A stretch of DNA of 64,000 bases from the human T2T-CHM13v2.0 reference genome, Homo sapiens (GCA_009914755.4 CP068257.2:6336001-6400000), one strand, 5' to 3'. Shown: positions 12,660-26,872, numbered from the stretch's first letter. The notes: generated from the sequence alone by a model not told the origin. Numbers and translations are program-made.

Positions 12660-14155
12660 AACAAGCTTATGAGTAAAATAATAGAAAGCAGAGCCACAGA
12701 GAGTATGAGAGGCAGGAGTCATCTCCCAAGTCCAAGTTCAACTTCTATATTATTAGACAGGGCCTCAGTGTCTTTGAACTGCAAGGAATTAATATTGATT
12801 GTAGCATGAGTAAAACCTATCTTCTACTCATCATGAAAAGTCACAGTCGTTTTGTTTAAAGACTCCAGAATTATTATAGGCAGAAACAAGAAAGTTACAC
12901 ACCTATTTGGTGAAACGAGGAATCAGGAATTCCCAAGAGAATACAATTACAAAAGTAAAATCACCTAGAGTTTTTGGGCTGATTAAAAAACCCAGAAAGA
13001 AGTGCCAAATGAGAAAATAATCAAATTCAGTGGAAAAACTCCCTTGAAAGTATCATGGTCAGCTGGGTTTCCACCCCTTTGTTGCACTTCAAATCCTGTC
13101 TATTCCACAAAGACTTGCTCCTTTCTAAAGGCTATGGTTGACGTTCAACAGAATAGCAGCAACCACCATGAGCCTGAGGGCTGGCTAGTCTTTAGTATTC
13201 TGCCTTATTCAAAGAAACGATCATTTCCCTCATTCCTAAAAATCTCCCAGGTCCATTACAAAAAAAGAAGCAGCAGCCAGGCGCAGTGGCTCACACCCGT
13301 AATCCCAGAACTTTGAGAGGCCAAGGGGGGAGGATCACCTGAGGTCGAGAGTTCAAGACCAGCCTGGCCAACATGGTGAAACCCCGACTCTACTAAAAAT
13401 ACAAAAATCAGCGGGGTGTGGTGGTGTGTGCCTGTAATCCCAGCTACTAGGGAGGCTGAGGCAGGAGAATTGCTTGAACTCGGGAAGTGGACGTTGCAGG
13501 GAGCCAAGATCATGCCACTGCACTCCAGCCTGTGGGACAGAGCAAGACCCTGTCTCAAAAAAAAAATTCTTACCTCCTGGAAGTATTTTACTAGTGTTGG
13601 TTTCTATTTGACATTAAACACTTCGCCAGGCCAGTGCATTAGCTGTTAGCTCCTTACTGAATATTATCTGCAGCAAACAGTAGCTGACTCCTAGCTCTCT
13701 TCAGTGAACTTGAATTTAAATTTATAGAATTCTCATGACTTCTATTTCATCTTGAAACCCAGAGACTCCTTCCCTTTCCTAGTGATTTACCTTTCAATTA
13801 TAGGTAGACTGAACCAGTCCCAGCCGGCCTTAGTTGGTCTCTATTCAAACACTGTACTTTTGTTTCTTGATTACATCTTCAATTATTTTAGTTATTTCTG
13901 AGATTCTCCCCTGTAATTTCTCCAACTATCTAGGGCATAAAAAGTGCATGAATACCATTATGAAGGCTGTGAGACTTCAAATAAGTGAGTAGCCTTTCTG
14001 AGCCTCAGGTTTCTCCTCTGTAAACCAGGAATAATTTTTACTGAACAAAGTTGTTCTAAGGATTAGTGAAATGTATGTAAAGCACTTAGCATTTAATAGG
14101 TGATCAAATGGTAAATGGTGCTTATAAAATGTCTTTATCATGGTAAAGTATATAT
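12660..14155 (+). repeat. Local low-copy repeat, copy A: sub-unit X at 12660-12905 and sub-unit Y at 12905-14155, with an embedded Alu at 13272-13570
   Basis: The reverse complement of 12905-14155 aligns by eye along its whole length with 25625-26872. For example ttcttacctcctggaagtattttactagtgttggtttctatttgacattaaacacttc at 13563 is the reverse complement of 26157-26215. X (12660-12905) is homologous to 26940-27440 and, inverted, to 28118-28640. Confidence 0.8.
13272..13570 (+). mobile_element. Alu (full length), part of duplicated unit A
   Basis: agccaggcgcagtggctcacacccgtaatcccagaactttgagaggccaagggggg ... gcactccagcctgtgggacagagcaagaccctgtctcaaaaaaaaaa. Confidence 0.95.
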
Positions 14156-14162
14156 AACAATA

Positions 14163-14265
14163 TACATATATATACATATAAATGTATATATATATGTATA
14201 TGTGTGTGTGTGTATATATATATATATATATATATATATATATATATATATATATATATATATAT
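14163..14265. repeat. Compound microsatellite (TA)n/(TG)n/(TATG)n
   Basis: atatacatatatatacatataaatgtatatatatatgtatatgtgtgtgtgtgtatatatatatatatat ... Confidence 0.95.
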
Positions 14266-14547
14266 TGAGATAGAGGCTTGCTCTGTCACCAGACTGGAGT
14301 GCAGTAGTGGCGCGGTCTCGGCTTACTGCAAACTCTGCCTCCTAGGTTCAAGGATTCTCCTGCCTCAGCCTCCTAAGTAGCTGGGATTACAGGCACCTGC
14401 CGCCACACTTAGTTAATTTTTGTATTTTTAGTAGAGACGGGGTTTCACCATGTTGGCCAGGATGGTCTCTATCTCTTGACCTTGTGATCTGCCTGCTTCA
14501 GCCTCCCAAAGTGCTAGGATTACAGGTGTGAGCCACCGTGCCCAGCC
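14266..14547 (-). mobile_element. Alu (full length)
   Basis: tgagatagaggcttgctctgtcaccagactggagtgcagtagtggcgcggtctcggcttactgc ... cctcccaaagtgctaggattacaggtgtgagccaccgtgcccagcc. Confidence 0.95.
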
Positions 14548-14725
14548 CGATTTTAACCAGTCTTAAGTGTGCAGTTATCGGCATTAAGTGCATTCATGTT
14601 GTTGTACAACCATCACCACCATCCATCTCCAGAACATTCTTATCATCCCGAAGTGAAACTCTGCACCCAGTAAGCAATAAGCCCTCATTCCTCTCTACCC
14701 CAGCCTCTGGCAACCACCAAACTAC

Positions 14726-15026
14726 CTTTTTTTTTTTTTTGCTTTTTTCTGACAGGGTCTTACTCTGTCGCCCAGGTTGGAGTACAGTGGCATGATCATA
14801 GTTCACTGAAAGCTTGAACTCCCAGATTCAAGTGATCCAACCCACTTCAGCCTCCCCAGTAGTTGGGACTATAGGTATGTTCCACCACACCTGACTTTTC
14901 TTTTTAAAGTAGAGATGAGGTCTCACTATGTTGTCTAGCCTGGTCTTGAATTCTTGGGCTGAAGTGATCCTCCCGCCTTATCCTTCCAAGATGTTGGGAT
15001 TATAGGAATGAGCCACTGAGCCTGAC
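14726..15026 (-). mobile_element. Alu (full length, diverged)
   Basis: tttttttttttttttgcttttttctgacagggtcttactctgtcgcccaggttggagtacagtggcatgatcatag ... ccttccaagatgttgggattataggaatgagccactgagcctgac. Confidence 0.9.
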
Positions 15027-24480: not shown

Positions 24481-24488
24481 AGAAAAGG

Positions 24489-24780
24489 CCAGTCACCATG
24501 GCTCATACCTGTAATCCCAGACCTTTGGGAGGCCGAGGCAGACAGATCACCTGAGGGTCAGGAGTTCGAGACCAGCCTGACCAACATGCAGAAACCTTAT
24601 CTCTACTAAAAATACAAAATTAGCTGGGTGTGGTGGCACATGCCTATAATCTCAGCTAACTGGGAGGCTGAGGCAGGAGAATCGCTTGAACCAGGGAAGT
24701 AGAGGTTGTGGTGAGCTGAGAGCGCATCACTGCACTCCAGCCTGGGAAACAAGAGTGAAACTGTCTCAAAAAAAAGGGAG
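24489..24780 (+). mobile_element. Alu (full length)
   Basis: ggccagtcaccatggctcatacctgtaatcccagacctttgggaggccgaggcagacagatcacctgagggtcaggagttcgagaccagcctgaccaac ... cactgcactccagcctgggaaacaagagtgaaactgtctcaaaaaaaa. Confidence 0.95.
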
Positions 24781-25117
24781 GAAAAAACATATTTATTCTC
24801 TCGTATTTTCTGTGGGTCAGGAATTTGGGCACAACTCAACTGGGTTCACTGCATAGGGTCTCACAAGGTTGCAGGCAAGGCGTCAGCTGAGCTAGGTTCA
24901 AGCTCATTCATGTTGTTGACAAAATTCATTTCCTTATGTCTGTATGATTGTGTAGCTATGTTTTTTATTGGGTATTGACCGGAGGCCACCCTCAGGTCCT
25001 AGACACCACCTGCTGTTGGGCTTCCTCAATATGGTCACACACTTCATCAAATCAGCAAGGAGAATCTTGTGTGCATGCCAGCAATATGTCTATCTCATAT
25101 CCTAATGTATGTCTCTC

Positions 25118-25190
25118 TCCTCCTCCTCCTCTCCTCTTCCCTCTCCTTTCTTCTGTGCGCACACACACACACACACACACACACACATAT
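25118..25190. repeat. Compound simple repeat (CTC/CT-rich then (CA)n)
   Basis: ctctcctcctcctcctctcctcttccctctcctttcttctgtgcgcacacacacacacacacacacacacacat. Confidence 0.9.
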
Positions 25191-25624
25191 CCCAGGAGTA
25201 ACAACCCATCACATTTGCAATATTGTGTCAGTTAGAAACAAGTCACAGATCCTACTCACACTTACTCGATTTCATCCAAAAGCTTGGGCAGTGATCCCAT
25301 CCACACTAAAAAAGGAAGAGATCATACAGAGTATAACACCAGGACATCGAGATCATGGGAAACATCTTAGAAGTCTGCCTATCACAGATAATAAATACTT
25401 GTTGTTGTTTGAAGACATTAAGTTTCAGGTAATTTCTTATGCAGCAATAGACAACTAATTAGTAAGAGTTGTGCCTAACTAATTAGGCACAAGTTAGAAT
25501 ATAAGGAGTGAAGAGTTATCACTATAGATCCTACAGATACTAAAAGATAAGAGTTTGTTTTACTATAAGCAAGCCTATCACAATAAGACTATTTAGATTA
25601 AAAGGCTGGTAAGTTTTATGCTTT

Positions 25625-26872
25625 GTATATTTTACCATGATAAAAACATTTTATAAGCATCACTTACCATTTGATCACTTATTAAATGCTAAGTGTTTTA
25701 CATACATTTCATTAATCCTTAGAACAACTTTGTTCAGTAAAAATTATTCCTGGTTTACAGAGGAGAAAACTGAGGCTCAGAAAGGCTACTCATTTATTTG
25801 AAGTCTCACAGCCTTCATAATGTTATTCATGCACTCTTTATGCCCTAGAGAGTTGGAGAAATTGCAGGGGAGAATCTCAGAAATAACTAAAATAATTGAA
25901 GATGTAATCAAGAAACAAAAGTACAGTGTTTGAATAGAGACCAACTAAAGACGGCTCTGACTGGTTCAGTCTACATATAATTGAAAGGTAAATCACTAGG
26001 AAAAGGAAGAAATCTCTAGGTTTCAAGATGAAATAGAAGTCATGAGAATTCTATAAATTTAAATTCAAGTTCACTGAAGAGAGCTAGGAGTCAGCTACTG
26101 TTTGCTACAGATAATATTTAGTAAGGAGCTAACTGCTAATGCACTGGCCTGGGGAAGTGTTTAATGTCAAATAGAAACCAACACTAGTAAAATACTTCCA
26201 GGAGGTAAGAATATTTTTTCTGAGACAGAGTCTTGCTCTGTCCCCAAGGCTGGAATGCAGTGGCATGATCTTGGCTCACTGCAACCTCCACTTCCCAGGT
26301 TCAAGCAATTCTCCTGCCTCAGCCTCCCTAGTAGCTGGGATTACAGGCACACACCACCATGCCCAGCTGATTTTTGTAGTTTTAATAGAGATGCAGTTTC
26401 ACCATGTTGGCCAGGGTGGTCTCAAACTCCTGACCTCAGGTGATCCGCCCGCCTTGGCCTCTCAAAGAGCTGGGATTACAGGCATGAGCCACTGCACCTA
26501 GCTGCTCCTTCTTTTTTTGTAATGGACCTGGGAGATCTTTAGGAATGAGGGAAAGACTCATTTCTTTGAATAAGGCAGAATATTAAAGACTAGCCAGCCT
26601 TCAGCCTTATGGTGGTTGCTGCTATTCTGTTGAACGTAAACCATAGCCTTTAGAAAGGAGCAAGTCTTTGTGGGATACACAGGATTTGAAGTGCATCAAA
26701 GGGGTGGAAACTCAGCTGACCATGATACCCTCAAGTGACTTTTTCCACTGAATTTGATTATTTTCTCACTTGGCACTTCTTTCTGGGCTTTTTAAGCAGC
26801 CCCAAAGCTCTAGGTGATTTTACTTTTGTAATTGTATTCTCTTGGGAATGCTCATTCCTGATTGTTTCAGTA
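25625..26872 (-). repeat. Local low-copy repeat, copy B: inverted copy of sub-unit Y (12905-14155), including an Alu at 26216-26512
   Basis: Reverse-complement collinearity with 12905-14155 over about 1.25 kb. By-eye identity is about 93-98% depending on the stretch, for example 4 mismatches in about 195 bp at 26020-26215. The Alu sits at the equivalent position and opposite orientation in both copies. Confidence 0.8.
26216..26512 (-). mobile_element. Alu (full length), part of duplicated unit B
   Basis: ttttttctgagacagagtcttgctctgtccccaaggctggaatgcagtggcatgatcttggctcactgcaacc ... cctctcaaagagctgggattacaggcatgagccactgcacctagc. Confidence 0.95.

What the first reader, a model, noticed from the sequence alone, without database searches (positions are those of the whole stretch)
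12905..26872. ~1.25 kb inverted low-copy repeat pair (12,905-14,155 vs 25,625-26,872) flanking an 11.5 kb spacer
The reverse complement of 12,905-14,155 is collinear with 25,625-26,872 across the whole length, at about 93-98% by eye. Each copy carries an embedded Alu in matching position and opposite orientation (13,272-13,570 + and 26,216-26,512 -). The duplication therefore post-dates that Alu insertion. One breakpoint coincides with the (TA)n/(TG)n microsatellite at 14,163. The other coincides with an Alu fragment at 26,875-26,940, suggesting repeat-mediated formation. Inverted repeats of this size and identity can mediate inversion of the intervening 11.5 kb by non-allelic homologous recombination. 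They are also typical of the duplication-rich sequence bordering pericentromeric satellites.
Basis: seen in the sequence. Interest (0 to 1): 0.55.

Follow-up and report, generated by a model that had tools for sequence, protein, structure and literature searches.

The report
Old inverted duplication near a satellite
Two 1.26-kb copies of the same patchwork of old mobile-element pieces face each other across 11.4 kb next to a pericentromeric-type satellite; this is a real but ordinary ancient inverted segmental duplication, now too diverged to flip the DNA between the copies efficiently.

Summary
Arm A (12,906-14,168, +) and arm B (25,610-26,874, -) are collinear over their whole length. The core alignment has 1,235 columns, 93.0% identity and one gap (E = 0).

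Each arm is the same patchwork: unclassified sequence, an AluSx, more unclassified sequence, a MIR, and the last ~40 bp of an L1 3' end. So this is a duplicated locus, not two independent repeat insertions.

One is the TA/TG microsatellite, which is the tail of an Alu inserted in an L1 3' end. The other is a truncated Alu fragment.

The duplication is old (K2P 0.07; by inference roughly 25-40 Myr). The longest perfect match between the arms is 88 bp, below the identity tracts usually needed for efficient NAHR.

Thirteen contigs from public metagenome assemblies (at least two labelled human) carry the same junctions. They differ from the window and from each other by 1-2.5%, so the region belongs to a multi-copy duplicon family. 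Their variant patterns suggest past gene conversion in the arm centre. They do not give safe evidence of inversion.

No gene or RNA was found in the arms or spacer. Verdict: ordinary pericentromeric duplication architecture, low interest.

The parts
12906..14168 (+). Arm A of the inverted duplication (core 12,918-14,152)
25610..26874 (-). Arm B of the inverted duplication (core 25,626-26,859)
   Evidence: The whole arm with both flanks is reproduced in the independent contig L006.
13276..13563 (+). AluSx embedded in arm A
   Evidence: 88.2% to an AluSx consensus recalled from memory; 19 differences shared with the arm B Alu, 15 private.
26214..26502 (-). AluSx embedded in arm B, same position in the arm alignment
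12918..13275 (+). Outer non-Alu part of arm A (92.7% to arm B). No other copy in the window. Repeat class not determined.
   Evidence: No L1 ORF2 similarity. Its 104-aa ORF has no Pfam hit.
13966..14125 (+). MIR element inside arm A (counterpart in arm B about 25,653-25,812, - strand)
   Evidence: 116/156 identical to MIR consensus positions 80-258 (consensus recalled from memory), z = 18.5 against shuffles; arm B 119/153.
14126..14168 (-). Last ~40 bp of an L1 3' end, included in arm A. Arm B counterpart is 25,598-25,650 (+).
   Evidence: arm B tail 38/46 to L1 3' end consensus positions 166-211, z = 6.7. The arm A tail is blurred by the TA repeat.
14149..14265 (.). (TA)n/(TG)n microsatellite at the inner end of arm A; it is the A-rich tail of the Alu at 14,265-14,547
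   Evidence: (TRF), and (sequence; Alu orientation)
14265..14547 (-). AluS inserted in the 3' end of an L1 (- strand); its tail forms the inner breakpoint of arm A
   Evidence: Non-CpG divergence is 6.1%, similar to the embedded Alus.
14550..16308 (-). Old L1 (- strand) whose 3' end runs into arm A. 14,550-14,718 matches the L1 3' end; 16,096-16,308 matches the ORF2 C-terminus. The stretch between was not examined; an AluJo lies at 14,743-15,016.
   Evidence: 141/167, z = 49.8; ORF2 aa 1197-1266, E = 1.5e-7
14169..25609 (.). 11,441-bp spacer. It holds Alus, L1 remains and an MLT1-like LTR end (recognised by eye near 25,400-25,460). No gene or RNA family was detected.
26875..26941 (-). Truncated AluJ-like fragment (consensus 156-222) directly outside arm B
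12695..12905 (+). X1: sequence directly outside arm A, 85.2% identical to 27,030-27,236 (start of an L1 ORF2-derived unit)
26893..27026 (+). W1: sequence directly outside arm B, 87.3% identical to 27,520-27,956 of the same unit (Alu right half plus L1 ORF2 aa ~490-519)

Best explanation
The pair is an old inverted segmental duplication with no function of its own.

Origin (partly inferred). A ~1.3-kb stretch of ordinary repeat-rich DNA was copied once, in inverted orientation, to a site 11.4 kb away. The stretch consisted of unclassified sequence, an AluSx, more unclassified sequence, a MIR and the tail of an L1. The copy (probably arm B) runs from the tail or target-site duplication of an Alu inserted in an L1 3' end to a point about 12 bp beyond the outer edge of arm A. 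Its outer end was joined to the middle of an Alu fragment. These are non-homologous or microhomology-type joins at repeats, as expected from end-joining or replication template switching.

Later history (inferred). The two arms drifted apart to 93% identity. A ~600-bp central tract was probably homogenised later by gene conversion. The larger region was then copied again to several places as part of a pericentromeric duplicon family.

Present state. The arms are a weak substrate for recombination, so inversion of the spacer is possible but inefficient.

What is shown and what is inferred. Shown: the duplication, its composite make-up, the breakpoints and the multi-copy family. Inferred: which arm is parental, the joining mechanism, the gene conversion and the age.
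For: Collinear 1,235-column alignment, 93.0% identical, 1 gap, E = 0.

Each arm holds the same order of four unrelated elements with identical junctions: AluSx, MIR and L1 tail, and two non-Alu stretches found nowhere else in the window. The two Alus share 19 changes from the consensus.

Arm A looks parental. Its inner end is collinear, across an Alu insertion, with an L1 3' end (141/167 to the L1 3' end at 14,550-14,718; ORF2 C-terminus at 16,096-16,308). Arm B's L1 piece starts at L1 position ~166, next to the Alu insertion point at position ~172 in arm A. Beyond that, arm B's flank has no similarity to arm A's L1. Arm B's outer end abuts an Alu cut at consensus position 222.

Age: K2P is 0.0725 overall, 0.077 in the outer part and 0.0475 in the inner part.

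Independent contigs reproduce the junctions: both arm B junctions (L006), the outer arm A junction (L001, L007, L011) and the inner arm A junction (L010).

Family. In the outer arm, window-to-contig distances are about 2% and distances between arm types about 5-7%. The arm A outer flank occurs in at least three versions 1.1-2.5% apart.

Gene conversion. In the outer arm and 5' Alu, most A/B differences sort by arm type in the contigs. Between 13,565 and 14,099, 17 of 23 differences are private to the window copies. The innermost 4 sites again sort by flank. In-window divergence is 7.3% outer against 4.2% central (Fisher p = 0.052).

No coding or RNA signal: Rfam finds only a U2-like hit at 42 kb, and 8 ORFs have no Pfam hit.
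Against: No primate assembly could be searched, so the order of events and the parental arm rest on repeat continuity over short stretches (12-60 bp).

The MIR, L1 3' end, L1 ORF2 and Alu references were recalled from memory, not taken from Dfam.

The two non-Alu stretches (12,918-13,275 and 13,564-13,965) could not be repeat-classified.

The expected 3' target-site duplication of the Alu is visible only in arm B's flank. In arm A it must have been lost in the microsatellite.

The sequences just outside the two arms look like two halves of one L1/Alu unit. A simple 'copy arm A to a new site' model does not predict this.

The metagenome contigs are short-read assemblies that break or turn chimeric at Alus. 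Mosaic variant patterns could therefore be assembly mixing rather than gene conversion.
Confidence: 0.8

Rival explanations
1. The 13,969-bp block (arm A, spacer, arm B) entered as one unit, or in one complex event, into a pre-existing L1/Alu unit. The arms are then its terminal inverted repeats. One possible route is a linear or broken donor whose end folded back and was copied to run-off before integration. This overlaps with the best explanation, because the arms would still be an inverted duplication.
For: X1 (12,695-12,905) lies directly outside arm A, and W1 (26,893-27,026) lies directly outside arm B. They match adjacent parts of one neighbouring unit (27,030-27,236 and 27,520-27,956). 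Orientation and order are the same and divergence is equal (85.2% and 87.3%). About 265 bp is missing between them. Both arms end at the same position of the duplicated sequence (12,906 / 26,874).
Against: X1 has no significant L1 ORF2 signal of its own. The outermost ~12 bp of both arms resemble the continuation of X1's L1, which fits a two-step history better. No target-site duplication flanks the block. No empty site was available for comparison.
Confidence: 0.25
2. The inverted duplication is a by-product of an inversion made by staggered breaks. The ancestral order was X1 - arm - spacer in the opposite orientation - W1. Staggered nicks on either side of the arm were filled in, which left one arm copy at each end of the inverted spacer.
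For: The geometry fits: one duplicated segment at both ends of a segment, in inverted orientation. Contigs L001 and L007 join arm A's outer flank and an A-type outer arm to arm B's inner flank. That is the predicted ancestral arrangement.
Against: The joins in L001 and L007 pass through the embedded Alu and the nearly identical arm centre. Short-read assemblers can switch arms there, and other contigs of the set are demonstrably chimeric at Alus. L006 and L010 show the window's arrangement in other copies. The L1 next to arm A is collinear with the L1 tail inside the arm, so that junction looks ancestral, which this model does not expect.
Confidence: 0.1
3. The pair is an active flip-flop. The 11.4-kb spacer still inverts recurrently by NAHR between the arms, in populations or among paralogous copies.
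For: The contigs show all combinations of outer arm type and inner flank: A-outer with B-inner (L001, L007), B-type Alu with A-inner (L010), and B with B (L006). The arm centre lacks type-specific differences, as expected if the arms have exchanged sequence. Validated human inversions exist with 1.6-2.7-kb repeats and 7-15-kb spacers (PMC3961182).
Against: In this window the arms are 93% identical and the longest perfect tract is 88 bp, below the reported processing-segment sizes (PMC2583991). The contig linkage is not trustworthy across the Alu. No long-read data were available.
Confidence: 0.12
4. The similarity comes from two independent insertions of a high-copy interspersed repeat, or of two Alus into similar sequence. 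This is the refutation condition named in the finding.
For: The region is very Alu-rich (about 48 Alu matches in the 48 kb outside the satellite).
Against: The non-Alu parts (357 bp and 587 bp) are 92.8% and 95.6% identical and occur only in the two arms. A MIR, whose independent copies typically differ by 25-35% (own knowledge), is 95% identical between the arms. The Alu sits at the same base in both arms.
Confidence: 0.01

Closest known systems
Inverted low-copy repeats that mediate human polymorphic inversions (InvFEST set, e.g. HsInv0347 with 1.6-kb THE1C repeats and a 7.1-kb inversion; HsInv0114 with 2.7-kb composite-TE repeats and a 14.7-kb inversion; PMC3961182)
   Same: Two inverted copies on one chromosome, about 10 kb apart. 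The arms are built from pieces of several transposable elements plus unique sequence, as in HsInv0114.
   Different: The arms here are shorter (1.26 kb) and only 93% identical, with no perfect tract above 88 bp. In the validated cases the breakpoints lie in tracts of high identity, e.g. 782 bp at 99.9% in HsInv0209. Neither orientation state could be shown here.
Pericentromeric segmental-duplication mosaics with junctions at Alu elements (own knowledge: Bailey, Liu and Eichler 2003; Horvath et al.)
   Same: The pair lies 21 kb from a (TGGAA)n satellite. It has junctions in an Alu tail and an Alu body. Several paralogous copies lie 1-2.5% apart. Older nested duplications sit alongside (81-87%).
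   Different: Nothing essential. This is a small, old member of that class. The chromosome and species of the window were not established.
Inverted duplications flanking inversions made by staggered breaks (own knowledge: Ranz et al. 2007, Drosophila; also described for some primate inversions)
   Same: A single segment duplicated in inverted orientation at both ends of an intervening segment.
   Different: The orientation of the spacer in an outgroup is unknown. The L1 beside arm A looks continuous with the arm, which that model does not predict.

Membership tests
Segmental duplication / low-copy repeat (usual definition: at least 1 kb, at least 90% identity, not a single high-copy transposable element) | Length at least 1 kb | tested here: met
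   1,235-1,263 bp aligned
Segmental duplication / low-copy repeat | Identity at least 90% | tested here: met
   93.0-93.1%
Segmental duplication / low-copy repeat | Not explained by a single interspersed repeat family | tested here: met
   Each arm holds AluSx, MIR, an L1 tail and two stretches found only in the arms, with identical junctions. Dfam or RepeatMasker could not be run on the two unclassified stretches.
NAHR-competent inverted repeat (inversion-mediating) | Inverted orientation on the same molecule, close together | tested here: met
   Arms on opposite strands, 11,441 bp apart
NAHR-competent inverted repeat (inversion-mediating) | Uninterrupted identity of at least one processing segment (about 134-232 bp in cell culture, 300-500 bp in human meiosis; PMC2583991) | tested here: not met
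   The longest perfect tracts are 88, 84 and 61 bp. Exceptions below 50 bp are reported for repeats about 5 kb apart, so recombination is not excluded.
NAHR-competent inverted repeat (inversion-mediating) | Both orientations of the spacer observed, with exchange of paralogous variants inside the arms | tested here: inconclusive
   L001 and L007 link arm A's outer flank to arm B's inner flank. L010 links a B-type Alu to arm A's inner flank. These joins cross an Alu in short-read metagenome assemblies that show chimeras.
DNA transposon or foldback element with terminal inverted repeats | Target-site duplication directly outside both terminal repeats | tested here: not met
   The flanks ...ACACACCTA|arm A and arm B|CAGCCTTGAAC share no direct repeat.
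DNA transposon or foldback element with terminal inverted repeats | Terminal repeats specific to the element, and a transposase gene inside autonomous copies | tested here: not met
   The arms are made of an Alu, a MIR and an L1 tail. ORFs of at least 100 aa in the spacer have no Pfam hit.
Cruciform-forming palindrome (e.g. AT-rich palindromes at translocation sites) | Arms adjacent or separated by a very short spacer | tested here: not met
   The spacer is 11,441 bp.
Inversion with staggered-break duplication | Outgroup carries a single arm and the spacer in the opposite orientation | not testable with these tools
   No primate genome assembly was available. The contig evidence is ambiguous.

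The most novel reading that the evidence does not exclude
The 14-kb block bounded by the two arms is a discrete insertion into an L1/Alu unit. Its 1.26-kb terminal inverted repeats were made in the same event, by fold-back of a broken donor end copied to run-off. The block's spacer has since flipped in some paralogous copies. That would give a worked example of how small inverted duplicons are born and then act inside pericentromeric duplication mosaics.
Probability: 0.12. Interest if true: 0.4.

Novelty: already known. Interest (0 to 1): 0.15.

Why it matters
It matters little in itself. Inverted low-copy repeats of this size are common in duplication-rich sequence next to satellites, and nothing functional lies in or between the arms.

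It has modest value as a marker. The arm-specific variants and the four junctions could be used to type the orientation of the 11.4-kb spacer, and to count and phase the paralogous copies in long-read assemblies.

The two halves of one L1/Alu unit flanking the whole block give a clean, testable prediction about how the structure arose: an empty site should exist in an outgroup.

Tried and rejected
1. Independent Alu insertions or a high-copy repeat: rejected.

2. A longer, older inverted duplication extending beyond the arms. Sensitive BLAST of Alu-masked flanks (word size 7) found nothing collinear beyond 12,906-14,168. The inner flanks score no better than shuffles.

3. Arm A plus X1 made in one fold-back copy of X2 plus arm B. 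Rejected because X1-X2 is 81-85% identical while the arms are 93%.

4. L1 3' transduction of the arm. There is no poly(A) and no AATAAA at the outer end of arm B. Dropped.

5. A candidate target-site duplication (TTTTA(C)TATAAGCA) around a short L1 tail in arm B, which would make arm B parental. It is equally explained as L1 sequence, so it was not used.

6. Target-site duplication of the Alu at 14,265-14,547 compared with 26,860-26,875, as a test of the inversion model. The match was 9/16, which is not significant.

7. Exact-protein look-up of the 104-aa arm ORF: not on record.

8. Search of bacterial and archaeal genome contigs for the arm 35-mer: no hit.

9. Pfam scans given as DNA references failed because of stop codons. 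They were replaced by tblastn with L1 proteins recalled from memory.

10. Protein-level test of X1 as L1 ORF2: not significant.

11. The identity of the chromosome and species was not pursued.

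
Full report
**Observation**

The inverted pair is real.
- An ungapped scan reports arms 12,929-14,168 and 25,610-26,849: 1,240 nt, 93% complementary, 11,441 nt apart.
- Gapped BLAST aligns 12,918-14,152 with 26,859-25,626 at 93.1%, with 82 mismatches and 3 gap positions (E = 0, 1,808 bits).
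- A Smith-Waterman alignment gives 1,149 identities in 1,235 columns with one gap column.
- With permissive scoring the homology runs 12,906-14,168 / 25,610-26,874.

Identity is uneven along the arms. It is 92.7% in the outer 357 bp, 88.9% in the Alu (9 of its 32 mismatches are in CpG context) and 95.4% in the inner 589 bp. K2P distance is 0.0725 overall. The longest perfect tracts are 88, 84 and 61 bp.

**Anatomy of an arm**

The window is primate-like. It has about 48 Alu matches in 48 kb and a 16-kb (TGGAA)n satellite from 47,981 to the end.

Read from outside to inside, each arm contains:
- about 12 bp that resemble the continuation of the flanking L1-derived piece X1;
- 358 bp found nowhere else in the window;
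- an AluSx (13,276-13,563 +; 26,214-26,502 -);
- about 400 bp more of sequence confined to the arms;
- a MIR (13,966-14,125; 116/156 to MIR positions 80-258, z = 18.5);
- the last ~40 bp of an L1 3' end.

The two Alus share 19 differences from the AluSx consensus (15 at CpG sites) and have 15 private differences each.

Four unrelated elements in the same order with the same junctions cannot arise by independent insertion. A MIR that is 95% identical between the arms points the same way. The refutation condition in the finding is therefore not met.

**Breakpoints**

*Inner end of arm A.* The TA/TG microsatellite (14,149-14,265) is the tail of an Alu on the minus strand (14,265-14,547).
- That Alu sits inside the 3' end of an old minus-strand L1. 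Positions 14,550-14,718 match the L1 3' end at 141/167 (z = 49.8), ending at L1 position ~172 exactly at the Alu.
- The ORF2 C-terminus of the same L1 is at 16,096-16,308.
- The L1 tail inside arm A is therefore collinear with this L1.

*Inner end of arm B.* The L1-like sequence begins at L1 position ~166 (25,598; 38/46, z = 6.7). Further in, the flank has no similarity to arm A's L1 (score below the shuffle mean).

The simplest reading is that the copied segment started at the end of the Alu tail and included the Alu's 3' target-site duplication. Arm A's 5' copy reads AAGACTGGTTAAAATC and arm B's flank reads AAGACTATTTAGATTAAAAGGC. This is an inference. The alternative is that the Alu inserted later, about 25 bp from the breakpoint. 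The Alu's non-CpG divergence (6.1%) equals that of the embedded Alus (5.1-6.0%) and exceeds their post-duplication changes (3.4-4.3%). That favours an Alu older than the duplication, but not significantly.

*Outer end of arm B.* It abuts an AluJ-like fragment cut at consensus position 222 (26,875-26,941).

*Outer end of arm A.* It abuts X1 (12,695-12,905).

On balance arm A looks parental and arm B derived (my confidence is about 0.6).

**An unexpected feature of the flanks**

X1 lies just outside arm A and W1 (26,893-27,026) lies just outside arm B. They are homologous to adjacent parts of one neighbouring unit.
- That unit is an L1 ORF2-derived stretch interrupted by an Alu right half and a later AluY: 27,030-27,236 and 27,520-27,956.
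- The L1 ORF2 matches are aa 433-481, 490-519 and 526-545.
- The identities are 85.2% and 87.3%. Orientation and order are the same, and about 265 bp is missing between them.

The whole 13,969-bp block therefore looks like an interruption of a sister copy of that unit. I could not decide whether the block entered in one event with its terminal repeats, or whether arm B was added later at the old junction. This is carried as a rival explanation and as the novel case.

A second, older inverted pair (27,065-27,567 vs 28,151-28,624, ~81%) lies next door.

**Evidence from elsewhere**

*What was found.* A 35-mer from the arm found ten contigs in public metagenome assemblies, at least one labelled human skin. 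It found none in bacterial genomes. A protein search with the arm ORF led to three more contigs, one of them from a human lung metagenome.

*Distances.* None is identical to the window.
- Substitution distances are about 2% in the outer arm and flanks.
- The contigs also differ from each other. The arm A outer flank occurs in at least three versions 1.1-2.5% apart.
- The arm B inner flank occurs in at least three or four versions.
- Such distances are far above allelic diversity. The region from at least 9.9 to 30.5 kb therefore belongs to a multi-copy duplicon family. I did not establish whether the window is one of the human copies or comes from another ape.

*Junctions.* The contigs independently confirm all four:
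- L006 is collinear with 24,654-30,479.
- L001, L007 and L011 carry X1|arm A.
- L010 carries arm A|TA repeat.

*Age relative to the family.* In the outer arm and the 5' part of the Alu, most A/B differences sort by arm type in the contigs. The A/B split (5-7%) is therefore older than the spread of the family (about 2%).

*Arm centre.* Between 13,565 and 14,099, 17 of 23 A/B differences are private to the window's arms. All contigs share the other state, including L010, which is linked to arm A's inner flank. The innermost four sites again sort by flank. This pattern is what a ~600-bp gene-conversion tract between the arms would leave. It agrees with the lower divergence there: 4.2% against 7.3% (p = 0.052).

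*Caveats on the contigs.*
- Several contigs leave the window's sequence exactly at Alus or at the TA repeat.
- L012 and L013 are fine-scale A/B mosaics.
- Assembly mixing is therefore a real alternative to gene conversion.
- For the same reason, L001 and L007 are not safe evidence that the spacer is inverted in other copies, although they join arm A's outer flank to arm B's inner flank.

**How it works**

Nothing suggests a function.
- Rfam finds only a U2-like sequence at 42 kb.
- The ORFs of the arms and spacer have no Pfam match.

The relevant property is structural. Inverted repeats can invert what lies between them by NAHR. Validated human examples include 1.6-kb and 2.7-kb repeats around 7-15-kb segments (PMC3961182).

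In those cases the exchange occurs in tracts of very high identity. Reported minimal processing segments are about 134-232 bp in cultured cells and 300-500 bp in human meiosis, with rare exceptions for close repeats (PMC2583991). With 93% identity and no perfect tract above 88 bp, the present pair is a poor substrate. It was presumably a good one soon after it formed and again after the central conversion.

Using a neutral rate of 1.0-1.5e-9 per site per year (my assumption), the outer divergence corresponds to roughly 25-40 Myr and the centre to roughly 15-25 Myr.

**Comparison and verdict**

The pair meets the usual definition of a segmental duplication: at least 1 kb, at least 90% identity, and not a single transposable element. 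It fails the tests for:
- a transposon with terminal repeats (no target-site duplication; arms made of unrelated elements);
- a cruciform palindrome (the spacer is 11.4 kb);
- currently efficient NAHR.

It is an ordinary, old, small inverted duplicon inside a pericentromeric duplication mosaic. Two qualifications apply: the repeat belongs to a multi-copy family, and its present capacity to drive inversion is low. Interest is low.

The only mildly unusual point is that the block is bracketed by two halves of one L1/Alu unit. That gives a clear outgroup test of how the structure arose.

Noticed in passing
27,065-27,567 and 28,151-28,624: A second, older inverted pair (~81% identical). It is made of an L1 ORF2-derived fragment plus an Alu right half, with the same L1|Alu junction in both copies. 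An AluY (27,583-27,871) lies in its spacer.
   Followed up: partly
12,695-12,905 and 26,893-27,026 (compared with 27,030-27,956): The sequences directly outside the two arms match adjacent parts of one neighbouring L1/Alu unit at 85% and 87%. Orientation and order are the same and about 265 bp is missing. The 14-kb block seems to interrupt a sister copy of that unit.
   Followed up: partly
42,001-42,137 (+): U2 spliceosomal RNA match (Rfam RF00004, 74 bits against a gathering score of 46). It spans model positions 1-192 in only 137 nt, so it is probably a deleted pseudogene.
   Followed up: no
36,000-38,000: A GC-rich stretch (GC 0.55 against ~0.40 around it) with several overlapping GC-rich ORFs of 100-203 aa. 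The 203-aa ORF has no Pfam match. It could be a CpG island.
   Followed up: partly
47,981-64,000: (TGGAA)n satellite to the end of the window: about 3,200 copies of a 5-bp unit, 68% matches, GC skew about +0.63. The 38-42-kb region also shows raised GC skew (+0.2).
   Followed up: no
3-1,912 (+): The C-terminal 636 aa of an L1 ORF2, 76-84% identical to the human L1 ORF2 sequence as I recalled it. This is the youngest-looking L1 in the window.
   Followed up: no
1,970-2,126 and 30,425-30,581: A 157-bp inverted match at 91.7%, probably two L1 3' UTR pieces. Not examined.
   Followed up: no
L002-L005, L009-L011 (metagenome contigs): These contigs leave the window's sequence exactly at Alus or at the TA repeat and continue into unrelated DNA. 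L010's tail does not look human. They are either chimeric joins or junctions specific to other paralogues. L012 and L013 are fine-scale mosaics of arm A and arm B variants.
   Followed up: partly
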